In this document: positions 11,114-20,984 of the stretch, piece by piece
Layout: each line of letters begins with the position of its first letter
Numbering within the stretch: position 1 is the stretch's first letter
From: a virus
Lineage: Duplodnaviria; Caudoviricetes
DNA length: 58,594 nucleotides
Reading direction: 5' to 3' (one strand)
Virus record (IMG/VR): IMGVR_UViG_3300023174_000190
Location: 1-58,594 of that record
Program-made: the position numbers and the translations under genes
Notes under the pieces: generated by a model
The model's database searches: none
Seen by the model: only the letters and a program-made list of their open reading frames with translations
Told to the model about the DNA's origin: nothing

Positions 11114-13299
11114 GCAATTTCCTCGATTACCTTGGAAAGCAACACTCGGTTGGTCAAGCGCCCACGGTTCATGGCTAGGAACGCTGTCTTGAGTTTGCGA
11201 GCAGAGACCACACCTTCACCCAGAATATCTTCCAATGAATCATCATCCGTATTCAAATCACTTCCACCAGGAATTAAAAAGTATTGATCATATCCGTAAT
11301 TGGAAACTTGATAAAACTTTTGTGTACGGAACACTTTCAATTCGGTATCAATTTTGAAAGAAGGGATTCCAAAACGTTGGGCTGCACTACTAAAAACACT
11401 TTTACTCTTACCAAGAATGTAGAATCCAATCAAATTACATCCAGTCTTTTCTTTAAGAATCTGGAGCAATGCAGGAGTAACGCCGTTAACTCCAACTTTG
11501 TAATTCCTTTTAGTATCTTCATCTTGAATATATGATGAATCATATCGAGTCGGTGCTCCAATTCGCTCTATCGTTCCATCTGGAGTTATTGCAGTATAAA
11601 GTGTACTAGAATCTTCACCGTCAGTAATAAACGAAACGTTTACGATTTCGGTACGGGTACGCTTGCGAAAATCATTAATAACCGACGGAGCAACTTTAAT
11701 TGTAGAGTTTAAAGGAGTACCACCTAATCGCATATCATGGGCAATATTCACATAGTGAAAACGCCGAGCATACGAATAAGTTCGACTATTCGTTGGATTG
11801 TAACACCGAACATAATTCAATAGGTCATTCGCGAATTTGCGATATGAAGCATTCTTCATACTGCTTGAAAGAATATTCAGAAGACTAAAGTTTTCATAAA
11901 AAGCCAATTCGCCTGCCATTTCGGAATGGCGATCTCCTTGCGACTCATGGATATACTGAGTGGTAAATGCATAAACATCAAAAGGAATATTCACTTTACG
12001 GCAAAATGTCGTAAGAGTAAGCAATTGCTCAATTGTTCCTTCAATGTTATCTGTCATTGAACCAGACCAATCTACGAAAATTACAATACCGTGATTCTTA
12101 CCAGCTGCAACAGAACCAATCTTGCGGAAGATATCGTCATTGAATTTGTAGGTATGCAGTTTGTTAGTATCTAACTTGCCGCTATCTGCAACTGTAATGC
12201 GACGATTCTCGGTTGCTTTTTTACGCATTTCAAATTCTTTTACAAGATAATTGATTGCGTTTTTATTGCGCTGCTCAAAAGCATTCAGAAGAGTATTGTC
12301 ATAACCGCCTTTGTCGGTATAATAGTCATTCTCAAAGAATTTATTCTGCAATTCTTTCCAATGAACAATGTAATTCTTTGCTTGGAACTTAGTTTGACTT
12401 GGAAGAACACCAATAGCAATTTTGCGATCTTCGACCAATTGGCTTAAAGACTTTGCTAGACTTTCATCGGTAAGAGACTTTACTGTTCCACGATAATCCG
12501 ACAATTCTTCATCATCCGAATCATCATATGAACTATTAGAGAATCCACTACTTGAATTTTCACCATCTGTTTCTGGTTCAAAATCTTCTGGATTCTGATC
12601 CTCTACATCACCCGATTCATCTGAGTAATCATCAAAATCATCTTCATCAAAACCGCCAAGGTCTTCCTCTTCATCAATGTCACCGCGTTGGCGCTGAGCA
12701 TCAGCATTTTGTTCAGCTTCTTGCTTACGCTGCTCTAATTCACCTTTGCAATAATCGTAAAGGCGAGTGGCAATGTCTTTCACTTCACCAAAAGTCTGTG
12801 CATTCTCAATTTCTTGAACAAATGCATTCTCTTCTGCATTATTGAATCGAACATTAGCAAAAGCACCAATCTTGAAATGCAAATTGATTCGATCAATCAG
12901 CAATAGTTTGTTTACGTCTTTGCCTTTAATCTCGAAAAAATCACGCTCGACAAATTGGCGATAACCTAGAGCAAAGGATTTGCGCAGACCTGGATAACGA
13001 TCTTTAATCATCCGTTCAATTCGGGCATCTTCAACAACGTTTAAGAATGTACCGAATTCTGCACCACCAGCCTTATGACATTCAATGTATTCGACTGGCG
13101 TATCAATTGCATGGCCAATCTCATGGCCATAAAGCAATTCTTGAATCTCTGGAGTAATGTCTTGCCACATTGGCAATGTGATCTTACGATTTTTAAGATC
13201 AAACGAAGCAGTCGGAACCTTGCGGTGCTCCACAATCAGATTCTCTGTTGCGAGCAATCGAACTAAGGTAGACTTGGTAAATTGTACGTTCTCAGTCAT
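11110..13299 (-). CDS. Metallopeptidase-like + vWA protein (CobT-like partner of the AAA+ ATPase)
   Basis: Start moved to MTENVQF. HEIGH (HExxH) and NVVEDARIE; acidic linker; vWA MIDAS motifs DWSGSM, GGTPL and ITDGE. Confidence 0.88.
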   Translation of the reverse strand: MTENVQFTKSTLVRLLATENLIVEHRKVPTASFDLKNRKITLPMWQDITPEIQELLYGHEIGHAIDTPVEYIECHKAGGAEFGTFLNVVEDARIERMIKDRYPGLRKSFALGYRQFVERDFFEIKGKDVNKLLLIDRINLHFKIGAFANVRFNNAEENAFVQEIENAQTFGEVKDIATRLYDYCKGELEQRKQEAEQNADAQRQRGDIDEEEDLGGFDEDDFDDYSDESGDVEDQNPEDFEPETDGENSSSGFSNSSYDDSDDEELSDYRGTVKSLTDESLAKSLSQLVEDRKIAIGVLPSQTKFQAKNYIVHWKELQNKFFENDYYTDKGGYDNTLLNAFEQRNKNAINYLVKEFEMRKKATENRRITVADSGKLDTNKLHTYKFNDDIFRKIGSVAAGKNHGIVIFVDWSGSMTDNIEGTIEQLLTLTTFCRKVNIPFDVYAFTTQYIHESQGDRHSEMAGELAFYENFSLLNILSSSMKNASYRKFANDLLNYVRCYNPTNSRTYSYARRFHYVNIAHDMRLGGTPLNSTIKVAPSVINDFRKRTRTEIVNVSFITDGEDSSTLYTAITPDGTIERIGAPTRYDSSYIQDEDTKRNYKVGVNGVTPALLQILKEKTGCNLIGFYILGKSKSVFSSAAQRFGIPSFKIDTELKVFRTQKFYQVSNYGYDQYFLIPGGSDLNTDDDSLEDILGEGVVSARKLKTAFLAMNRGRLTNRVLLSKVIEEIA

Positions 13300-13322
13300 A
13301 TGAATTTCTCCCTTACCCACCC

Positions 13323-13351
13323 ATAGTAGCAAACCACCAACGCTATGTCAA
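13323..13351 (-). promoter_or_regulatory. Sigma70-type promoter for the peptidase-vWA gene
   Basis: TTGACA-17 nt-TACTAT; the -35 box overlaps the TGA stop of the upstream gene. Confidence 0.75.
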
Positions 13352-13953
13352 GCAGCAACTGCTTCTTCCTCGACCTGTTGCGGCTGGACAACAGAGAGAA
13401 TCTTCGGACGGCTGATCACCGTCTGAGGAGCACCACGATACTCGCGGTGGGTCTTCACCGTCGCAACCACTTGAGCCGTCTGACCCTTCGAAGGGAACTC
13501 AGCAGTGCCGCTATAAACGACAGCGTTACCGTTCTCATCCTCACAGATGCGGAGGAGGGACATTCCCGAATCGTACCAGTGATAGCGAGCCCGCTCAACT
13601 TCAATTTCTGCCTTGACCGTCAAGGTCATGGTTACTTTTTTACCTGGCTGACCGACGTGGGTCATAGTAGCAATCTTAGCAACACGTTCAGCTTCGAACT
13701 TTGCTTTACGCTCTGCTTGGGTTGCAATAGAATTCCGAAGAGCAATCACCTGCTTTTCGGTCAGCTTGCCATACTTGTCAAGAGCAGTCAACAGGCTTTG
13801 GTAGAACGAATTCTTACCAGCATTAGCCCACAGGAAATCGAACATCTCCTGCGCGTCGGGATATGTACGATTGAACGTAGTCCGAGCATTCATTACGATG
13901 TTACGCTTAATACCAGCCTCATACGCGGACGGATTGTGAATCTGTGAATGCAT
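13348..13953 (-). CDS. Hypothetical early protein with a probable C-terminal OB-fold
   Basis: Start moved to MHSQIHNP (SD-like AAGGGAG upstream). YGKLTEKQ helical part, then HVGQPGKKV...DENGNAVVY...ATVKTHREYRGAPQTVISRPK. Confidence 0.7.
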   Translation of the reverse strand: MHSQIHNPSAYEAGIKRNIVMNARTTFNRTYPDAQEMFDFLWANAGKNSFYQSLLTALDKYGKLTEKQVIALRNSIATQAERKAKFEAERVAKIATMTHVGQPGKKVTMTLTVKAEIEVERARYHWYDSGMSLLRICEDENGNAVVYSGTAEFPSKGQTAQVVATVKTHREYRGAPQTVISRPKILSVVQPQQVEEEAVAA

Positions 13954-13990
13954 TTTCGAACTCCCTTGTTTCTGTCTCACCACAAGATCA

Positions 13991-14018
13991 ATTCTACTCT
14001 GATCACCACGAAAGTCAA
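13991..14018 (-). promoter_or_regulatory. Sigma70-type early promoter
   Basis: TTGACT-16 nt-TAGAAT. Confidence 0.65.
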
Positions 14019-14025
14019 GGCTTTT

Positions 14026-14053
14026 CTTGGTGTTGCACAAAAACAACACCAAG
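14026..14053. repeat. Perfect 10-bp inverted repeat upstream of the early promoter
   Basis: CTTGGTGTTG-cacaaaaa-CAACACCAAG, plus a third TGTTG at 14056-14060. Confidence 0.75.
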
Positions 14054-14068
14054 TTTGTTGTTTTTTTG

Positions 14069-14767
14069 CTACTTTATTGCAATAAATGCTGTGAATCCAT
14101 GATTTTGCCAGAATGTATCCATGCGTTTAAAGTCAAATCCAGCACCAGCGCAAATACTCAATAATTCATTTCGAGTATTTAATTTCATCATATGTCGCAA
14201 TTCTCGCTCTTTATTTAGAATGTCATCTGATGTAAAATGCTCTCTTTTGTAATCATAATATGTAAATGTGCGAATATCTTGGATCTTTGAGCATTCGGAA
14301 ATAGTTTTCTCTGCAAAAATGAATGCACCACCATGACGCAATCCACTATAGATTTGTTTTACAATATCGCGTCTTTGATTTTCTGGAATGAATTGTAAAG
14401 TAAAGATAGAAGTAATCAATGTTGAATCTTGAAATTTAAAATCGCGAACATCACCACGATGATATTTCAAATGAAATCCAGATTCAGCATATAGTTCTTC
14501 ATCTTTGTCGAAGCCTGGAAAGAAGTCTTCTTCAATTTCAATTCCAAAGTATTTTGCGTTTGGTGCAAATGCAATGTTTTGCTCATGCATTGCTTTAAGT
14601 AGTTTACCAGTAGAGCAACCAACATCAACAACTGATGCATCATTCTCTACGAAATACTCTGAGTATTTCAATACGTCATTCCAAAGATTTGTGTATCCGC
14701 GAATAGAATGCTCAATGTGTGCATCGAAACCTTCTTCTCTTTGTGCGAATGTAAATTTTTGTGCCAT
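14069..14767 (-). CDS. cmoA: CmoA-like carboxy-S-adenosylmethionine synthase / class I methyltransferase fold
   Basis: FDAHIEHSIRGY, DVGCSTG, IFTLQFI, GGAFIFAEK and FWQNHGFTAFIAIK parallel the CmoA motifs FPDMIQRSVPGY, DLGCSLG, NFTLQFL, SEK and WFQCFNF. Confidence 0.85.
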   Translation of the reverse strand: MAQKFTFAQREEGFDAHIEHSIRGYTNLWNDVLKYSEYFVENDASVVDVGCSTGKLLKAMHEQNIAFAPNAKYFGIEIEEDFFPGFDKDEELYAESGFHLKYHRGDVRDFKFQDSTLITSIFTLQFIPENQRRDIVKQIYSGLRHGGAFIFAEKTISECSKIQDIRTFTYYDYKREHFTSDDILNKERELRHMMKLNTRNELLSICAGAGFDFKRMDTFWQNHGFTAFIAIK

Positions 14768-14768
14768 T

Positions 14769-16004
14769 TTATAATTCCTTGTACGGTTTCAATATTTTCT
14801 CATATACATTGGATGCAAGTGCAGCCATCATTTTGGGCGCAACCATTCTACCAATTCGTTCAGCCTTTTTATCGAAGTTACCAGTAAGAATAAAATCGTC
14901 AGGCATACCCATTATAATCTTTAATTCTTTGATTGTAAACTTCCGATTCTTTTCGTAGTGGAAAACACCAGACACAGACTTTTGATTACCGCGTTGTGTA
15001 ATCGTTGGAGATGGCAAATCTGGGCATGGGCGAATCATATTAAACAATGATCGTTTAGGATTGATAGAGATAAACTCTTTGTCACTAGGTTTCATATGTC
15101 TTGGCGGATTGAATGGAAGCATTTCAATCCATTTCTTTTGAAAACCATTCTGAACATAGTCATACAATTCTTTCTCTTCTTCAGGATCATTCACTACATC
15201 ACCAATTGCTGATTTAAGACTAATGTGCTTAGGAGTAGTCTTATCTGGACAAGTCATGGTATTGATGTTTAGAAAATTGATTCCAACTTTTTCTGCAACA
15301 TCAGATCGAACACAAACAAAAAACAAACGTTCTCTAGTTTGTGGAACACCATAGTCTGCAGCACTCAATACATGATATGTTGTAACATATCCAGGTTCAA
15401 TATTTTCAAATGCGTTTTTGAACTCAATCAGTTTCTTTGCAGCTTCACCCATTGTGATGCCTTTCACGTTCTCTGCAATGATAACTTTTGGCTTAATCTC
15501 TTTTGCAATTCGAATGTATTCAAAAAACAAGTCTTCAATTGCTTCTACAACTTTACCATCAGAATAGACTTTGACACCAGAACTTACTGTAGACTCAGTA
15601 ACATGTACAACTTCATCTAATTCAAAATCAAAATAGCTTTCTGCAAAATGTTTCTCTGAACCTTTCCAATTCTTTTCACGCTTACCTGCAACAGAGAATG
15701 CAGAGCACGGAGGCGAACCATCAAGAATATCTAACTCGCCTGGTTCTAAATTTGCAACTTCAAGAAAAGTTTTACCAGTCAATGTTTTAATGTCACCAGG
15801 AATAATCTTTGTGTCTGGAAAATTCATTGAATAAGTTTTGATTGCTTCTTCAACGAATTCATTGATTGCAATAACTTTACCACCAGCCAATCGATATCCA
15901 GTCGAACTTCCACCACCACCAGCAAAGGTACTAACTACCGTAAATAAATTTCTGTCTGATGATGCTTTTACATCAGCAATCGTATAGTGTTCGTATTTCG
16001 CCAT
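14769..16004 (-). CDS. C5-cytosine DNA methyltransferase homologue with variant motif X (probable carboxymethyltransferase)
   Basis: Start moved to MAKYEHY. Motif I FAGGGG, IV GSPPCSAFS, VI ENV and VIII QTRERLF are present; motif X reads GRMV instead of GN(A/S)V. Confidence 0.92.
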   Translation of the reverse strand: MAKYEHYTIADVKASSDRNLFTVVSTFAGGGGSSTGYRLAGGKVIAINEFVEEAIKTYSMNFPDTKIIPGDIKTLTGKTFLEVANLEPGELDILDGSPPCSAFSVAGKREKNWKGSEKHFAESYFDFELDEVVHVTESTVSSGVKVYSDGKVVEAIEDLFFEYIRIAKEIKPKVIIAENVKGITMGEAAKKLIEFKNAFENIEPGYVTTYHVLSAADYGVPQTRERLFFVCVRSDVAEKVGINFLNINTMTCPDKTTPKHISLKSAIGDVVNDPEEEKELYDYVQNGFQKKWIEMLPFNPPRHMKPSDKEFISINPKRSLFNMIRPCPDLPSPTITQRGNQKSVSGVFHYEKNRKFTIKELKIIMGMPDDFILTGNFDKKAERIGRMVAPKMMAALASNVYEKILKPYKEL

Positions 16005-16788
16005 AATTTTTCCAGTCCCTATAAACGTCAAGCATACGCTTGCGGTTTTTAATATTGATATCCTTACATTCTAACAGAACTTCGAATGCTTTGTCAATCC
16101 CTGCACCAAGCTGAAGGTTAATATGCGGTTTCGGTTTTCCTATCTTTTGGAACTCCGGGAACGCTTCTACAACATGATGTTTCTGGTAAGGTTTATTTAG
16201 CTGATACCAATCGTACTGCATGAAAAAATCTTTAATGGTACTATCTAAGTAAGGCGCAATGAAATCTTTTTTATATTTTAAAGAAAGGTATTGTTGTTGC
16301 ATGTAAGCAACAGGATTACTATTGCCGAAGTATTCAATACGAAACTGATCAAATAATTCTTTTGGTTCTTTGTAATGAATACATGCTTTCTTTGAAACAC
16401 CATAGTGACCGTCTGCTGCCCAGCCAGAGATAACTTCTTTCTCTTCTATTTTTGGATAGACATACAAGAATGGAAACGTACACTCATAATGTGTTTTCTT
16501 AATGCAAGCAAACTTAGTTCTTAAAGTATGAAAGTCTTCAATTAAATTATTAATTGGAACTTCAACTTTAGTGCATCTCCAACCCATTATGTTTGATGCA
16601 TCAATAGCTTTCTGAGAATCATATGTTGGATTGTTTTCTAAACAAAATGTGTATGCATGAACTTTTTTACCAAGTCTATGTGCAGTAAATGCTACAGATA
16701 AAGAATCAACTCCGCCAGAGAGTAGAACAGCAACTTCATTCTCTCTGGAAGAATCTTTTATTTTATTCTCTAGTAGTTTATCAATCAT
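15973..16788 (-). CDS. Asparagine-synthetase-like ATP-dependent amide ligase (synthetase domain only)
   Basis: PP-loop VLLSGGVDS, ISGWAADGHYG (cf. SGEGADELFG) and APYLD; no N-terminal glutaminase domain. Confidence 0.85.
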   Translation of the reverse strand: MIDKLLENKIKDSSRENEVAVLLSGGVDSLSVAFTAHRLGKKVHAYTFCLENNPTYDSQKAIDASNIMGWRCTKVEVPINNLIEDFHTLRTKFACIKKTHYECTFPFLYVYPKIEEKEVISGWAADGHYGVSKKACIHYKEPKELFDQFRIEYFGNSNPVAYMQQQYLSLKYKKDFIAPYLDSTIKDFFMQYDWYQLNKPYQKHHVVEAFPEFQKIGKPKPHINLQLGAGIDKAFEVLLECKDINIKNRKRMLDVYRDWKNYGEIRTLYDC

Positions 16789-17230
16789 GAAGCAATCTTA
16801 CTGAAATAATGCAACGCATAAGAAATTCCAATCCAGACTGATCGCGATAGTCTTCAGCATAAAAGACTTCTTTAATACCAGAAGCATATATCATTTTAGC
16901 ACAGTCCATGCATGGCGCACAAGTGACAAACATTGTAGCGCCTTCACCAGATTCATTGGATCGCGCAAGTTTACCAATTGCATTTAGTTCTGCATGAAGA
17001 ACTTCTGGTTTAGTTTTTAACATAATACGAATAAAACCTTGCGCGTCAACTTGTTGTATCTCATCTTCGCAATTATTATCCCAACCAGCAGGCATACCAT
17101 TGTAACCAATAGAAATGATTCTATCATCTTTTACAATGATTGCTCCAACTTTCTTTCTTTTTGCACTACTCAACTCTGCAAAGAGTTTTGCAGTTTTCAT
17201 GTACGAACCAAGATACTTTTCTTTAATCAT
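16781..17230 (-). CDS. cd: dCMP deaminase
   Basis: Start moved to MIKEKYL. KVGAIIVKD..IISIGYNG, HAELNAI and PCMDC zinc motifs. Confidence 0.93.
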   Translation of the reverse strand: MIKEKYLGSYMKTAKLFAELSSAKRKKVGAIIVKDDRIISIGYNGMPAGWDNNCEDEIQQVDAQGFIRIMLKTKPEVLHAELNAIGKLARSNESGEGATMFVTCAPCMDCAKMIYASGIKEVFYAEDYRDQSGLEFLMRCIISVRLLHD

Positions 17231-17471
17231 CAATAAACTCTTTTTGAAACAGGCGACGTTCTTGTATAGTTGGGATTTCAAATGTCTTTCTAGGATTAGC
17301 ACACATAACGCATTTTGGATTTCCACAACTCATTGGAGATTGTTTTGCTAACTTATGTGGTTGCTTAACTGGAACATGATTTTCTTTTGCAATTGCAACT
17401 TGTCGATTGATATGATTCTCTTTTTGTTGCAAACGGCGAGAGTGTTTGATTTTATGATCTTCATTACTCAT
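17223..17471 (-). CDS. Small basic hypothetical protein with a CxxxxCxxC motif
   Basis: SCGNPKCVMCANPRK; coupled to neighbours by overlapping start/stop codons. Confidence 0.65.
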   Translation of the reverse strand: MSNEDHKIKHSRRLQQKENHINRQVAIAKENHVPVKQPHKLAKQSPMSCGNPKCVMCANPRKTFEIPTIQERRLFQKEFIDD

Positions 17472-19180
17472 TTTGTTATCCTCGAAAAATTGTTGACCTT
17501 TTCGAACTTTATTACATTCATGAACTTATCTTGTAGCATATCTCCTTTATGTGATATTACGAATAGATTAGAACCTTCAAGCATTCCAAGAATCTTCATC
17601 AGATCTTCGGTTCCATTAGTATCTAGTGAAGAATCAAATATCTCATCAAGAATTAATATGTTTGTGCTTGCAGAATTTTTTAATTTAGCAACTGCTCTCC
17701 ACGTTAACATTAATGCCATATCGATTCGCTGTTTCTCGCCTTCACTAAATGATGCATAAGTAAAATCATCACGATGCCTGGATTTGATTGTCTCTTTGAA
17801 CGATTCATCCAAATTGAAATTCACAAAGAAGTCTAATGATGCAAGATATTTGTTTACTAACTTATTAATGATTGGAATGTATTGTCGAATGATTTTCGTT
17901 TTGATTCCAGTATCTTTAAGTAAAGTAGTCGCAACTTCATAGTATGCACGTTCTTCTGTGATTGATTTTATCTCTGTTTCAATTTGTAGTAAATTATCAT
18001 TAAGCCCAGACAGTTTCGTATTCTCTGTTTGTAAGTCACTCTTGTTTTCTTTGAGTCTTTCGATTTCCTTTTCTAATGTTTTGCTATATCTTTGATTGAC
18101 AATAATCTCACTCTGCTCTGATGTAAGATTTGAATTCACATCTTGAATCTGATCATCAATCAACTCAATATCTTTCTGTCGATTGAATAATGTATTGATT
18201 TCATTTTCAATCTCACCAATAGCTTTTTCAACTTCATTTAGTTTTTTGTTTCTCTCTTCTACAATATGTAGTTTGTGGTCTTCTGCAATTCCTTGCTTGC
18301 ATGTTGGACAATCATGATTATCATTATAAAAAGAAATATCTGTAGAAACTTTGTTGACAGTCTTTTGTAGATTGCTTCGTATACCAGTTAGTTTAATTAT
18401 TCTATCTGTGACTTTCTTTTTATCGGAAATCTTATCTCGTAATGTATTCAATTCAGTTTCGTATGAAGTACATTTGATTTGGCTTTCAGCAATCATATTA
18501 ATTGTGTTAGCTAAATCTTGTTCTTTTAGAGAAACTTGAGTAGCAGTATTCTTTTTGATGTTGTCGATCAATTGAATTTGATATTGAATCTGTTCTTTCT
18601 TCAAGTCTGATTGATACTTTGCTTGATGATGACGTTCTTTCAATAAAGCAAACTTATCTTTTAGAACTCCATTCATTCGCGAGAATATCTGAATGTCCAA
18701 CAAGTCTTCAATGATTGAGCGCCTATCGGATGCAGACAATTGCATGAACGGAACGAATGATGCAGATCCCAACAACACAATCTGAGTAAATGATTTGTAG
18801 TTAAGTTTAAGAATAAACTTTTCCAAATACTCTTGATAGTCTTTTGCTGCAGCGTCTTGATTGATTAGTTCGCCATTGCTATAAATTTCAAACACGTTCG
18901 GCTTGATACCACGAACAACTTTGAAAGACTTATTACCAATGACGAATTCAATCTCGACAACGCAATCTTTTTGATTGATTGCGTTTACAAGCTGACCCTT
19001 GTTTATGTTTCGAAATGATTTGCCAAACAATACGAAACACAATGCATCAAGCATTGTAGATTTACCAGAACCATTTGCACCTACAATTAGTGTAGTACCA
19101 TTCTCTGATAAATTAATTTCTGTATTGAAGTTGCCAGTCGAAAGAAAGTTTTTGAATCTAAGTTTATTAAAAGTAATCAT
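17468..19180 (-). CDS. gp46: Recombination endonuclease ATPase subunit (Rad50/SbcC-like)
   Basis: GANGSGKS, zinc hook CPTC, signature FSEGEKQRID, LILDEIFD and ISH motifs. Confidence 0.97.
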   Translation of the reverse strand: MITFNKLRFKNFLSTGNFNTEINLSENGTTLIVGANGSGKSTMLDALCFVLFGKSFRNINKGQLVNAINQKDCVVEIEFVIGNKSFKVVRGIKPNVFEIYSNGELINQDAAAKDYQEYLEKFILKLNYKSFTQIVLLGSASFVPFMQLSASDRRSIIEDLLDIQIFSRMNGVLKDKFALLKERHHQAKYQSDLKKEQIQYQIQLIDNIKKNTATQVSLKEQDLANTINMIAESQIKCTSYETELNTLRDKISDKKKVTDRIIKLTGIRSNLQKTVNKVSTDISFYNDNHDCPTCKQGIAEDHKLHIVEERNKKLNEVEKAIGEIENEINTLFNRQKDIELIDDQIQDVNSNLTSEQSEIIVNQRYSKTLEKEIERLKENKSDLQTENTKLSGLNDNLLQIETEIKSITEERAYYEVATTLLKDTGIKTKIIRQYIPIINKLVNKYLASLDFFVNFNLDESFKETIKSRHRDDFTYASFSEGEKQRIDMALMLTWRAVAKLKNSASTNILILDEIFDSSLDTNGTEDLMKILGMLEGSNLFVISHKGDMLQDKFMNVIKFEKVNNFSRITK

Positions 19181-20256
19181 TCTGTATTTTCAGTTGAAAG
19201 TGCTTCGACATATAATTCGCGCATTAGCATCTTTAATTTATTAGCATCGACTGGTCCAGTCAATGATTGATTCTCAATAAACTTTGAAAGAATCGTCATT
19301 GTATCTTCTGCTTGATTTACAATGTCATCATTATCTTCTGTCATTTGTGGTTCCGTAAAGTCTTCTACGATGTTAACATCTGTTGGATTTACTTTGTAGA
19401 TTTCATCTATTAGTTTTTCAAACACATAAGGATTCTGTTTGTTTAGCACTACAACTTTCACATAAGCATTTGCATATCTAGAGTAGTCTGCACCTTTTAA
19501 ATCTTCAATCTTTAATTTTGAATCGTCGTAATTGACTCTATAAAACATTCGATTTGGATTCTCGATGTAATCAACTTCCGATGTTGTTGTATCTAGAATT
19601 GCAAAATACTTTTTGTCTCGATAGTCAGACCAGAACAATTCATATGGAACTCCAAGATAAACAACGTTATCTTTTTTGGAATGTGTATGAAAGTGTCCGC
19701 TAAACACTTGATTATACTCGCTTAGAAACGAATGGTCAAGTCCTTCGTGACTTTTGATTTCTCCAATGAACGGAAAGTTTGCTAGTTCAAAGTGACCAAC
19801 ACATAGAGGAGAATTACTATTCTTGATGAATTCGAAGATTTCTTTCTCATTGCTTTTGCATATCCATGGAATCATATCAACTTTGACGCCATCTAATTCA
19901 AGTGTACCATGAGTTTGCCAAACATGAATATTGTCGTAATCTTTCAATAAAAGTCCAGGAGAATTAATATCCAGACTTTCTTTCCAAAAGATATCATGAT
20001 TGCCAACTAGTGTGTGAAGAGTGAGTCCTTCTTCAACGCAGCGATCAAAAAAGTATCTGCGACTCTCTGTCAATGATAGAAAATTGATATACTTGCGACG
20101 ATCAAACAGATCACCCAACTGAATGATCGTCTTTACATTTCGACGTTCTAGTTCTGGGAAAAATACCTCATTATAGAATTTTTCATAGAATGCATGGAAA
20201 ACTTTAGAGTCATTTCTGATTCCGAAATGCGTGTCGCCCAGTAGACATACCTTCAT
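19177..20256 (-). CDS. gp47: Recombination endonuclease subunit (Mre11/SbcD-like)
   Basis: GDTHFG, LGDLFDRRK, GNHD and SGHFH phosphoesterase motifs. Confidence 0.97.
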   Translation of the reverse strand: MKVCLLGDTHFGIRNDSKVFHAFYEKFYNEVFFPELERRNVKTIIQLGDLFDRRKYINFLSLTESRRYFFDRCVEEGLTLHTLVGNHDIFWKESLDINSPGLLLKDYDNIHVWQTHGTLELDGVKVDMIPWICKSNEKEIFEFIKNSNSPLCVGHFELANFPFIGEIKSHEGLDHSFLSEYNQVFSGHFHTHSKKDNVVYLGVPYELFWSDYRDKKYFAILDTTTSEVDYIENPNRMFYRVNYDDSKLKIEDLKGADYSRYANAYVKVVVLNKQNPYVFEKLIDEIYKVNPTDVNIVEDFTEPQMTEDNDDIVNQAEDTMTILSKFIENQSLTGPVDANKLKMLMRELYVEALSTENTE

Positions 20257-20413
20257 TATTCTTCGCCCTCATGTTTCCATTGATAGATTTATTGATTATA
20301 TCACGGACATTCGTAAGATGCAATAGCGCATGATCTTTCAAATCTTGTGGAGACTTTTTGTTTTCTAAAATCTTGATCCAATGTTCAAGCTGTACGGGCA
20401 ATGGCGTCTGCAT
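20210..20413 (-). CDS. Small hypothetical protein between gp55 and gp47
   Basis: Likely start MQTPLPVQLEHW after SD GGAGGA; overlaps both neighbours. Confidence 0.55.
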   Translation of the reverse strand: MQTPLPVQLEHWIKILENKKSPQDLKDHALLHLTNVRDIINKSINGNMRAKNNEGMSTGRHAFRNQK

Positions 20414-20984
20414 TTTGTTCTTCCTCCATAAATGAATCAAATACGGTATCTTCTTTTTTCTTCTTAGTCTTAGGCGCTTTCTTTTGCCTATTGTCTTCAA
20501 ACGTTACAATGAAGTCACGAATGAATTGTTCCGAATAAGAATCATGAAGAACATCATTCAAGTTTGAGGTAACGTATTCTTCTCCGTTATTCTCAATCAA
20601 CGAATTGATGACTTCATTCTCCATACTCTTATACTTTATGTATAAATGTTTTTTCTCTTTTTGTATCCTACGAAGAAAAGCATAATAAATTATTTGAGTG
20701 AAATATGCAAATGGGTTCTTTGATTTTTCTGGATCAAAGTTATCAATGTAAAGTAAACAATTTTCAACACCGTCAGATACCATGTCTTCTTTAAATGTGT
20801 AATTCGCGAAGTTTGGCTTTCGCGCTAAGTGCGTAGCAATCTTAAAAAGACAATCTCCAATGTATTCTGGAACTCTTGGTCTCTCGGTTTCATTTCCTTT
20901 TGATAGAGTGACTGCATTTTTGAATTTTACCATTTCAGATAAAAACTGTTCGTTGTTTACATAGTGTTTTTGTTTAGTGGTCAT
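20385..20984 (-). CDS. gp55: Late-transcription sigma factor
   Basis: HYVNN, YIGDCLFKIA.HL, NFANYT, DGVENC and NPFAYFTQIIYYAFLRRIQKEKK motifs. Start at MTTKQK (SD GAGG). Confidence 0.96.
   Translation of the reverse strand: MTTKQKHYVNNEQFLSEMVKFKNAVTLSKGNETERPRVPEYIGDCLFKIATHLARKPNFANYTFKEDMVSDGVENCLLYIDNFDPEKSKNPFAYFTQIIYYAFLRRIQKEKKHLYIKYKSMENEVINSLIENNGEEYVTSNLNDVLHDSYSEQFIRDFIVTFEDNRQKKAPKTKKKKEDTVFDSFMEEEQNADAIARTA

What the first reader, a model, noticed from the sequence alone, without database searches (positions are those of the whole stretch)
14069..17230. Candidate DNA hypermodification pathway: carboxy-SAM synthase + Asn-to-Arg C5 methyltransferase + amide ligase
Seen: four abutting or overlapping genes encode a dCMP deaminase, an asparagine-synthetase-like PP-loop enzyme without a glutaminase domain, a C5 DNA methyltransferase homologue and a CmoA homologue. 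Known: CmoA makes carboxy-SAM from SAM and prephenate for tRNA cmo5U; asparagine-synthetase folds adenylate a carboxylate and amidate it. Inference: the phage makes carboxy-SAM, carboxymethylates cytosine C5 in its DNA, then amidates the carboxyl group or couples an amine to it, giving a hypermodified anti-restriction base. No cmoB (the tRNA partner) is present in the window. I recall similar cassettes being reported in aquatic phages, so novelty needs a literature check; the amine donor and target sequence here are unknown.
Basis: partly seen in the sequence, partly recalled or inferred. Interest (0 to 1): 0.93.

Follow-up and report, generated by a model that had tools for sequence, protein, structure and literature searches.

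The report
Phage cytosine carboxymethylation-amidation cassette (cmoA-cmoX-cmoY)
An uncultured freshwater T4-like phage carries the three-gene set recently shown in a cyanophage to put a carboxymethyl group on DNA cytosine and then attach glycine to it, so this is a new example of a published system, not a new pathway.

Summary
Four tightly packed minus-strand genes encode a dCMP deaminase, a glutaminase-less asparagine-synthetase-like PP-loop enzyme, a C5 DNA methyltransferase homologue with Arg where ordinary enzymes have Asn, and a CmoA homologue.

In Synechococcus phage S-B43, CmoA makes carboxy-SAM, CmoX makes 5-carboxymethylcytosine at GC sites, and CmoY ligates glycine to it.

The window proteins are 47%, 50% and 49% identical to those three enzymes. 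The methyltransferase's best solved match is the CmoX crystal structure 8YF3. The SPPC motif and the carboxylate-binding Arg are kept.

Among 80 related viral loci, a CmoX homologue lies beside CmoA in 78, and all 78 have the Arg. CmoY is present in 47. The dCMP deaminase adjoins the cassette in only 4, so it is a neighbour, not a pathway member.

This is a new member of a known kind. Target motif and amine remain untested. A clade-specific 28-residue insertion in CmoX and three differing polar residues in CmoY leave a variant chemistry possible.

The parts
14069..14767 (-). cmoA: carboxy-S-adenosyl-L-methionine (Cx-SAM) synthase homologue, 232 aa
   Evidence: TIGR00740 CmoA matches at E 2.9e-26 over residues 4-232, below the equivalog cut-off. 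PHROG 4752 matches at E 1e-51. E. coli CmoA 4GEK matches at E 2.4e-19. It is 47% identical to S-B43 CmoA and 49% to S-CRM01 CmoA. S-B43 CmoA was shown to make Cx-SAM from SAM and prephenate (paper).
14769..16004 (-). cmoX: DNA cytosine C5-carboxymethyltransferase homologue, 411 aa from the ATG at 16004 (the ORF is open up to a TTG at 16031). Key residues are S97-P98-P99-C100, E178-N179-V180 and R386. A clade-specific insertion of about 28 residues lies around residues 115-143.
   Evidence: Pfam DNA_methylase matches at E 3.4e-54. PDB 8yf3_A (S-B43 CmoX) matches at E 4.5e-102. It is 50% identical to S-B43 CmoX, with SPPC and GRMV conserved. The AF2 model has pLDDT 86.3. The top Foldseek hit is 8yf3 at E 4.5e-40 and TMt 0.93.
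15973..16788 (-). cmoY: ATP-dependent (AMP-forming) amide ligase homologue, 271 aa. It has the PP-loop S24-G25-G26-V27-D28-S29 and no glutaminase domain.
   Evidence: Pfam Asn_synthase matches at E 1.5e-8, N-terminal part only. PHROG 26038 matches at E 1.5e-29. It is 49% identical to S-B43 CmoY, with tblastn E 7e-75. The AF2 model has pLDDT 88.5. The best fold matches are the synthetase domains of beta-lactam synthetase, AsnB, human ASNS and carbapenam synthetase, at TMq 0.71-0.75 and TMt about 0.41.
16781..17230 (-). cd: dCMP deaminase, 149 aa from the ATG at 17230 (the ORF is open up to a GTG at 17326). It is a translationally coupled neighbour, not part of the modification pathway.
   Evidence: Pfam dCMP_cyt_deam_1 matches at E 1.1e-22. 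PHROG 174 dCMP deaminase matches at E 3.9e-49. The HAE and PCxxC zinc motifs are visible in the translation. It lies directly upstream of cmoY in only 4 of 80 related loci.
17223..17471 (-). orf82: small conserved phage ORF of unknown function. It overlaps the start of cd by 8 nt and is the first gene of the coupled string.
   Evidence: PHROG 4499 matches at E 1.2e-7. It is present upstream of cd in L005-L008 only. The junction was read.

Best explanation
The window is a fragment of an uncultured freshwater T4-like myovirus. It carries a cmoY-cmoX-cmoA cassette inside its replication and recombination gene module.

Proposed mechanism, by homology to the S-B43 system:
1. CmoA converts SAM plus host prephenate into carboxy-SAM.
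2. CmoX is a C5-methyltransferase fold in which the motif-X Asn is replaced by Arg-386, which binds the cofactor's carboxylate. It uses Cys-100 to attack C6 of a flipped-out cytosine in double-stranded phage DNA and transfers the carboxymethyl group to C5, giving 5-carboxymethylcytosine. The likely target is GC sites.
3. CmoY is a stand-alone asparagine-synthetase-type PP-loop domain. It adenylates that carboxylate with ATP and couples an amine to it. The amine is most probably glycine, giving 5-glycylcarboxymethylcytosine.
4. The modified DNA resists host restriction.

What is shown here: gene content, homology, motif conservation, fold and synteny. What is inferred by homology: every catalytic step, the target motif and the amine.

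The adjacent dCMP deaminase is the ordinary T4-type nucleotide-pool enzyme (dCMP to dUMP for thymidylate synthesis). It is not a pathway member.
For: (1) The published biochemistry of the homologous S-B43 enzymes covers every step: Cx-SAM formation; 5cxmdC at m/z 286.1 on dsDNA in vitro and in E. coli, dependent on cmoA; HhaI resistance; the GC motif; structure 8YF3 with R350 on the carboxylate; the glycine amide at m/z 343.1 requiring ATP and glycine; and 5gcxmdC in virion DNA (PMC12783734, Results).

(2) The window proteins are 47%, 50% and 49% identical over their full length to S-B43 CmoA, CmoX and CmoY. The residues the paper names for SpCmoX (F25, E47, F48, D69, S95-C98, R350) were located in my translation of S-B43. 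All of them fall in columns identical in the window protein.

(3) 8yf3 is the best sequence match (E 4.5e-102) and the best fold match (E 4.5e-40, TMt 0.93). It is far ahead of HhaI and HaeIII (E about 1e-19 to 1e-22).

(4) Synteny: the IMG/VR scan with CmoA gave 563 confirmed stretches, of which the best 80 were kept. A CmoX homologue is next to or near CmoA in 78 of 80. The 2 misses are loci cut by the contig end. All 78 of 78 carry Arg at the R350 position (76 by pattern; 2 more read as ERCGRMV). CmoY is present in 47 of 80.

(5) Natural contrast: the Melnitz phage methyltransferase is 45% identical in alignment A1 (40.0% by tblastn). It has Leu at that position, and Melnitz is not among the 48 of 50,697 phage records with a CmoA hit.

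(6) The CmoY model has the AsnB, beta-lactam-synthetase and carbapenam-synthetase synthetase fold only, and its PP-loop SGGVDS is intact. Of the 73 residues invariant in the window's CmoY clade, 65 are identical in S-B43 CmoY.

(7) No CmoB was found in the window, in a 100%-complete relative, in an 80%-complete relative or in S-B43.
Against: - There is no chemical or sequencing-signal evidence for this phage. All steps rest on about 50% identity.
- CmoA scores below the NCBIfam equivalog cut-off (92.6 against 193.3 bits).
- The window's CmoX has an insertion of about 28 residues just after the catalytic PPC loop. It also has indels in the target-recognition region relative to S-B43. The insertion is modelled with pLDDT below 50, so the specificity could differ from GC.
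- Three polar residues invariant in the window's CmoY clade differ in S-B43 CmoY: K174 is Ile, H204 is Gln and H205 is Ile.
- The paper's list of glycine-binding residues is in a supplementary figure that I could not see.
- The record is about 32% of a genome, so other modification genes may lie outside it.
Confidence: 0.85

Rival explanations
1. The pathway is the same up to 5-carboxymethylcytosine, but this clade differs in its products. CmoY couples an amine other than glycine (another amino acid, ammonia or a polyamine), and/or CmoX recognises a motif other than, or longer than, GC. That would give a variant hypermodified base or pattern.
For: The paper itself states that several ligase clusters have distinct active-site residues, and that the specificities of other CmoX enzymes are unknown. 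In the window clade, K174, H204 and H205 of CmoY are invariant in 22 sequences but differ in S-B43 CmoY. CmoX has a conserved insertion of about 28 residues after motif IV and indels in the recognition region.
Against: CmoY is 49% identical to the glycine ligase, with tblastn E 7e-75. That is well beyond the 1e-56 edge threshold at which the paper's largest cluster, predicted to bind glycine or an alpha-amino acid, holds together. I infer it would join that cluster. Also, 65 of 73 clade-invariant residues are shared with S-B43 CmoY.
Confidence: 0.2
2. All four genes form one pathway. The dCMP deaminase acts together with the modification enzymes, for example by shaping the dCTP/dTTP pool specifically for the modified genome or by acting on a modified nucleotide.
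For: cd overlaps cmoY by 8 nt and sits in one coupled gene string with it. The same arrangement is kept in the four closest relatives, L005-L008.
Against: cd lies directly upstream of the cassette in only 4 of 80 related loci, and 3.6 kb downstream in one more. S-B43 and S-CRM01 have no deaminase beside their cassettes. The paper never mentions a deaminase: 0 occurrences of 'deaminase' or 'dCMP'. CmoX and CmoY act on polymerised dsDNA in vitro. dCMP deaminase is a common T4-type nucleotide-metabolism gene (my own knowledge).
Confidence: 0.05
3. The methyltransferase is an ordinary SAM-dependent 5mC enzyme. CmoA is an auxiliary gene that boosts host tRNA cmo5U modification through the host's CmoB.
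For: The annotations 'tRNA methyltransferase' and 'DNA methyltransferase' are what PHROGs and GenBank records give for these genes.
Against: Arg replaces the motif-X Asn in the window and in all 78 of 78 CmoA-linked homologues. Wild-type S-B43 CmoX accepts only Cx-SAM, not SAM (paper). CmoA and CmoX are adjacent in 78 of 80 loci. No CmoB is found in phage relatives.
Confidence: 0.03

Closest known systems
CmoA-CmoX-CmoY system of Synechococcus phage S-B43 (Yang et al., Nat Commun 2025, PMC12783734; CmoX structure PDB 8YF3)
   Same: It has the same three enzyme families, at 47%, 50% and 49% identity over full length. It shares the SPPC motif, the ENV motif and the carboxylate-binding Arg, and the glutaminase-less PP-loop ligase. 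It also lacks CmoB, and its host phage is T4-like (Kyanoviridae-like).
   Different: - Gene order is Y-X-A here and A-Y-X in S-B43.
- The window's CmoX has an insertion of about 28 residues after motif IV and extra residues in the recognition region.
- Three clade-invariant polar CmoY residues differ.
- The host is unknown and the habitat is freshwater. S-B43's host is Synechococcus sp. MW02.
- A dCMP deaminase is coupled upstream.
Synechococcus phage S-CRM01 cmoA-cmoX pair (freshwater cyanophage, GenBank HQ615693)
   Same: CmoA is 49% identical and CmoX 51% identical, with Arg conserved. The pair sits in the T4-like replication module between clamp-loader genes and regA. That is comparable to the window, where the cassette lies between gp45/CobS/CobT-like genes and gp46/gp47.
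   Different: S-CRM01 has no CmoY within 5 kb either side. It would presumably stop at 5cxmC or use a ligase encoded elsewhere.
Engineered M.MpeI N374K carboxymethyltransferase (cited in the paper's Results and Discussion)
   Same: It has a basic residue in place of the motif-X Asn, which lets a C5-methyltransferase use Cx-SAM.
   Different: It is a laboratory variant with CG specificity and Lys rather than Arg. It has no natural CmoA or CmoY partners.
Bacterial CmoA/CmoB tRNA cmo5U pathway (E. coli; CmoA structure 4GEK)
   Same: The first step is the same: Cx-SAM is made from SAM and prephenate. The window's CmoA aligns with 4GEK over residues 5-232 at E 2.4e-19.
   Different: The acceptor enzyme here is a DNA C5-methyltransferase homologue, not CmoB. 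No CmoB gene is present.

Membership tests
CmoX (phage DNA cytosine C5-carboxymethyltransferase) | C5-methyltransferase fold, with the SPPC catalytic motif containing the Cys nucleophile | tested here: met
   Pfam DNA_methylase matches at E 3.4e-54. GSPPC is at residues 96-100 and ENV at 178-180. The model's best fold match is 8yf3 at TMt 0.93.
CmoX (phage DNA cytosine C5-carboxymethyltransferase) | Arg at the position of SpCmoX R350, replacing the motif-X Asn. The paper used this as its search criterion together with SPPC. | tested here: met
   The window's ERIGRMV aligns with S-B43's ERVGRMV. The same holds in 78 of 78 CmoA-linked homologues.
CmoX (phage DNA cytosine C5-carboxymethyltransferase) | Genomic association with a phage CmoA | tested here: met
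   The cmoX stop and the cmoA start are 1 nt apart. The two are adjacent or near each other in 78 of 80 related loci.
CmoX (phage DNA cytosine C5-carboxymethyltransferase) | Uses Cx-SAM rather than SAM, and makes 5cxmC at GC sites | not testable with these tools
   This needs an enzyme assay, LC-MS and motif mapping. Only assembled contigs of public runs were available, with no raw signal.
CmoA (carboxy-SAM synthase) | Full-length homology to structurally and biochemically defined CmoA | tested here: met
   4GEK matches at E 2.4e-19 over residues 5-232. It is 47% identical to S-B43 CmoA, which has a measured kcat of 2.33 per s.
CmoA (carboxy-SAM synthase) | Score above the NCBIfam equivalog cut-off (TIGR00740 / NF011995) | tested here: not met
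   It scores 92.6 bits against 193.3, and 68.6 against 285. These models are built for the bacterial tRNA-pathway enzyme. I did not score the active S-B43 protein against them, so this failure says little about activity.
CmoY (5cxmC amide ligase) | Asparagine-synthetase-type PP-loop synthetase domain without a glutaminase domain | tested here: met
   SGGVDS is at residues 24-29. Pfam Asn_synthase matches the N-terminal part only. Fold matches to AsnB, beta-lactam synthetase and carbapenam synthetase cover the whole query but only about 41% of the targets.
CmoY (5cxmC amide ligase) | Belongs to the sequence cluster of the characterised glycine ligase (the paper's SSN edge threshold is 1e-56) | tested here: inconclusive
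   It is 49% identical to S-B43 CmoY, with tblastn E 7e-75. That E-value is from a different database from the paper's network, so cluster membership is inferred.
CmoY (5cxmC amide ligase) | Active-site residues that bind the glycine carboxylate (paper's Supplementary Fig. 8) | not tested
As a proxy, 65 of 73 clade-invariant residues are shared with S-B43 CmoY, and K174, H204 and H205 differ.
Four-gene pathway including dCMP deaminase | Co-conservation of the deaminase with the cassette | tested here: not met
   The deaminase is directly upstream in 4 of 80 loci and 3.6 kb downstream in 1 more. It is absent beside the S-B43 and S-CRM01 cassettes.

The most novel reading that the evidence does not exclude
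This freshwater clade may make a base or pattern different from S-B43's 5-glycylcarboxymethylcytosine at GC. Its CmoX carries a conserved insertion of about 28 residues next to the catalytic loop, plus recognition-region indels, so it may read a different or longer motif. Its CmoY has invariant K174, H204 and H205 where the glycine ligase has Ile, Gln and Ile, so it may attach a different amine. Related loci with two tandem Arg-bearing CmoX paralogues suggest that specificities have diversified within the family.
Probability: 0.2. Interest if true: 0.5.

Novelty: new member of a known kind. Interest (0 to 1): 0.25.

Why it matters
The cassette marks this phage as carrying a post-replicative cytosine hypermodification that blocks restriction. 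In the S-B43 study, carboxymethylation conferred resistance to HhaI.

The same paper reports thousands of candidate CmoX sequences from databases that include IMG/VR, which is the source of this record.

What remains useful:
- A divergent freshwater clade, about 50% identical to the characterised enzymes, with a CmoX insertion and CmoY substitutions that make it a reasonable candidate for testing altered motif or amine specificity.
- Clear evidence that the neighbouring dCMP deaminase should not be annotated as part of the pathway.

Tried and rejected
- Megablast of the 3.3-kb region against 50,697 phage records found nothing. Relatives were reached only at protein level.
- PDB sequence search with CmoY found nothing at E <= 0.01. 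A fold search on an AF2 model was used instead.
- The promoter and terminator scan of 13000-18000 was not above the shuffled expectation for promoters (21 found against 16.3 +/- 4.4). It was not used.
- tRNA scan: none found in the window.
- GpC statistics give an observed/expected ratio of 1.167 and 39.5 sites per kb. They give no evidence for or against GC targeting and were not used as support.
- I looked in a SAM review (PMC10491745; passages found by term search only) for named CmoA catalytic residues to test. It names none for CmoA, so no residue-level CmoA test was made. My recollection of an E. coli Arg-199 was not used.
- Public runs: all holders are kept as assembled contigs, so no raw-signal or miscall evidence of modification could be sought. 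RNA-library contigs identical to parts of cmoA, cmoX, cd and orf82 exist in one freshwater metatranscriptome (X18). DNA carry-over cannot be excluded, so I do not count this as evidence of transcription. Parts without cover mean nothing.
- I looked for a phage-encoded source of prephenate among 28 window ORFs scanned against Pfam. None was seen. ORFs beyond 27.5 kb were not scanned.
- Literature: three searches found one paper on natural DNA carboxymethylation, PMC12783734. The other hits concern the engineered enzyme or tRNA.
- I could not verify that this very contig is among the paper's 5,615 CmoX sequences, because supplements are closed.


Full report
**What is there.** Between 14069 and 17471 the minus strand carries a string of five tightly coupled genes (junctions read).
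- orf82 (17223-17471) overlaps the next gene by 8 nt.
- A dCMP deaminase (ATG at 17230, stop at 16781) overlaps the next by 8 nt.
- A 271-aa PP-loop protein (15973-16788) overlaps the next by 32 nt.
- A C5 DNA methyltransferase homologue runs from the ATG at 16004 to 14769. The ORF is open up to a TTG at 16031, but homologues start at the ATG.
- One nucleotide later comes a 232-aa CmoA homologue (14069-14767).

Profile searches confirm each assignment.
- dCMP deaminase: Pfam dCMP_cyt_deam_1 at E 1.1e-22.
- PP-loop protein: Asn_synthase at E 1.5e-8, restricted to the N-terminal PP-loop part of the profile, with no glutaminase domain.
- Methyltransferase: DNA_methylase at E 3.4e-54.
- CmoA homologue: generic methyltransferase domains in Pfam. 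NCBIfam CmoA TIGR00740 matches at E 2.9e-26 across the whole protein, although at 92.6 bits against a cut-off of 193.3.
- PHROGs agree.

**It is a published system.** Three literature searches turned up Yang et al., Nat Commun 2025 (PMC12783734). I read its outline, the whole Results section and the Discussion, plus a term search. For Synechococcus phage S-B43 the paper shows the following.
- The phage CmoA makes carboxy-SAM from SAM and prephenate.
- The neighbouring C5-methyltransferase homologue, named CmoX, transfers the carboxymethyl group to cytosine C5 in dsDNA. The product, 5cxmdC (m/z 286.1), is dependent on cmoA in E. coli and confers HhaI resistance.
- The target is a GC motif.
- The crystal structure 8YF3 has Arg-350 on the cofactor's carboxylate, where M.HhaI has Asn-304.
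- The asparagine-synthetase homologue, named CmoY, ligates glycine to 5cxmC with ATP (m/z 343.1).
- Virion DNA contains the glycine amide.
- A survey of IMG/VR v4, UniProtKB and MGnify-derived phage sequences found 5,615 candidate CmoX sequences (SPPC plus the Arg), 4,257 CmoA and 2,251 ligases.

**How the window compares.**
- The window's methyltransferase hits 8yf3_A at E 4.5e-102. The next best solved structures, HaeIII and HhaI, are at 1e-22 to 1e-19.
- I fetched the S-B43 locus. Its three proteins align with the window's at 50% (CmoX), 49% (CmoY) and 47% (CmoA) identity over full length.
- The residues the paper names for CmoX were located at the stated numbers in my translation of S-B43. 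They lie in columns identical in the window protein.
- In 411-aa numbering the window has S97-P98-P99-C100, E178-N179-V180 and R386 in ERIGRMV.
- An AlphaFold2 model of the window's CmoX (pLDDT 86.3) matches 8yf3 best, at E 4.5e-40 and TMt 0.93.
- A model of CmoY (pLDDT 88.5) matches the synthetase domains of beta-lactam synthetase, E. coli AsnB, human ASNS and carbapenam synthetase. The matches cover the whole query (TMq 0.71-0.75) but only about 41% of each target. That confirms a stand-alone synthetase domain.
- The PP-loop SGGVDS is intact.

**Synteny.** The record is an IMG/VR viral contig, linear and estimated 32% complete. Of these, 563 were confirmed, and I kept the best 80. Using tblastn with the window's proteins:
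- A CmoX homologue lies beside or near CmoA in 78 of 80 loci. The other two are cut by the contig end (L041, L067).
- CmoY is present in 47 of 80.
- Gene orders are Y-X-A (34, of which 4 have the deaminase upstream and 9 are cut at the 5' end), X-Y-A (12, plus the cut L067) and X-A without a CmoY hit (32, of which 8 are cut at the 5' end and 1 has a deaminase 3.6 kb downstream).
- Every one of the 78 CmoX homologues has Arg at the R350 position. 76 were found by pattern and 2 more were read as ERCGRMV.
- The dCMP deaminase is directly upstream of the cassette only in the four closest relatives, L005-L008.
- S-B43 and S-CRM01 have no deaminase beside their cassettes, and the paper never mentions one.

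Because CmoX and CmoY act on polymerised DNA, the deaminase is best read as the usual T4-type nucleotide-pool gene that happens to be coupled here.

**Controls and contrasts.**
- The Melnitz phage methyltransferase is 45% identical to the window's in alignment A1 (40.0% by tblastn). It has Leu at the Arg position. Melnitz is not among the 48 of 50,697 phage records with a CmoA hit at E <= 1e-10.
- The Moraxella phage Mcat8 homologue has the Arg but no phage CmoA hit. This fits the paper's finding that a host CmoA can supply Cx-SAM.
- CmoB (TIGR00452) is absent from the window. It is also absent from a 100%-complete 155-kb relative, an 80%-complete relative, a 38%-complete relative and S-B43.

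**The phage.**
- The window encodes T4-like core genes: DNA polymerase, RegA, clamp and clamp loader, gp46/gp47-like nuclease, gp55-like sigma factor, UvsW, UvsY, and gp23, gp22 and gp21 homologues.
- The best cultured match for the gp46 homologue is only 49% identical (Synechococcus phage S-CAM3).
- The cassette region occurs in freshwater and lake metagenomes from several studies.
- The host is unknown.

**What differs from S-B43.**
- Gene order is Y-X-A here against A-Y-X.
- A conserved insertion of about 28 residues follows the PPC motif. It is shared by the longer (404-428 aa) CmoX forms, is predicted as a low-confidence beta-hairpin, and comes with extra residues in the recognition region.
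- In CmoY, 65 of 73 clade-invariant residues are shared with the glycine ligase. K174, H204 and H205 are replaced there by Ile, Gln and Ile.
- I could not compare the glycine-binding residues, because they are given only in a supplementary figure.

These differences leave a variant motif or amine possible, and I put that at about 0.2.

**Verdict.** The system is a new, divergent member of a kind that is already characterised biochemically and structurally and has been surveyed across viral metagenomes. Interest is low to moderate.

Noticed in passing
L027:3651-5998 (also L028-L030, L032-L039, L046, L051, L058; L034 lies in a 155,201-base record rated 100% complete): These relatives carry two tandem CmoX paralogues between cmoY and cmoA (order Y-X-X'-A). 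Both have SPPC and the GRMV Arg, but their recognition regions differ. This suggests two carboxymethylation specificities in one phage.
   Followed up: partly
L048:4265-7209: In a locus with cmoX-cmoA but no CmoY hit, an MT-A70 family adenine methyltransferase lies directly upstream of cmoX. An S-adenosylmethionine decarboxylase-like protein (Pfam AdoMet_dc, E 1.1e-14) lies directly downstream of cmoA. This may be the common cyanophage speD-type gene or may be linked to SAM/Cx-SAM use.
   Followed up: no
L003:4010-5227 (Methylophilales phage Melnitz): This close methyltransferase homologue is 45% identical in alignment A1 (40.0% by tblastn). It has Leu (GLMV) where CmoX has Arg and ordinary enzymes have Asn, and no CmoA hit in the Melnitz records. 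Its cofactor preference is unclear.
   Followed up: partly
L085:1387-2457 (Moraxella phage Mcat8): A temperate-size (40.7 kb) Moraxella phage encodes a CmoX-like methyltransferase with SPPC and GRMV Arg but no phage CmoA hit. It may rely on host Cx-SAM.
   Followed up: no
L086:734-3433 and 18487-20616 (Dickeya phage vB_DsoM_AD1; similar in many Erwinia jumbo phages): Jumbo phages have a cmoA-like gene, a DUF1611 gene and a CmoY-like gene in a row. A 709-aa C5-methyltransferase homologue with a large internal insertion lies about 17 kb away. Its CmoY homologue shares only 42 of the 73 residues invariant in the window clade.
   Followed up: no
window:9828-14052: A CobS-like AAA+ ATPase (403 aa), a 740-aa protein and a 234-aa protein, both without Pfam hits, sit just downstream of the cassette. 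The stretch has higher G+C (0.43-0.44) than the window's usual ~0.32-0.40 (0.355 at the cassette).
   Followed up: no
L027:2309-2842 and L009:3728-3994: In relatives without the deaminase, a peptide deformylase gene lies directly upstream of cmoY. It is full length in L027 and a short C-terminal ORF in L009.
   Followed up: no
window:14061-17650: Short contigs from a freshwater metatranscriptome library (run X18) are identical to parts of cmoA, cmoX, cd and orf82. DNA carry-over cannot be excluded.
   Followed up: partly
window:3906-5250: An Hsp20-family small heat-shock protein and a ferritin-like protein are encoded between the DNA polymerase and regA.
   Followed up: no
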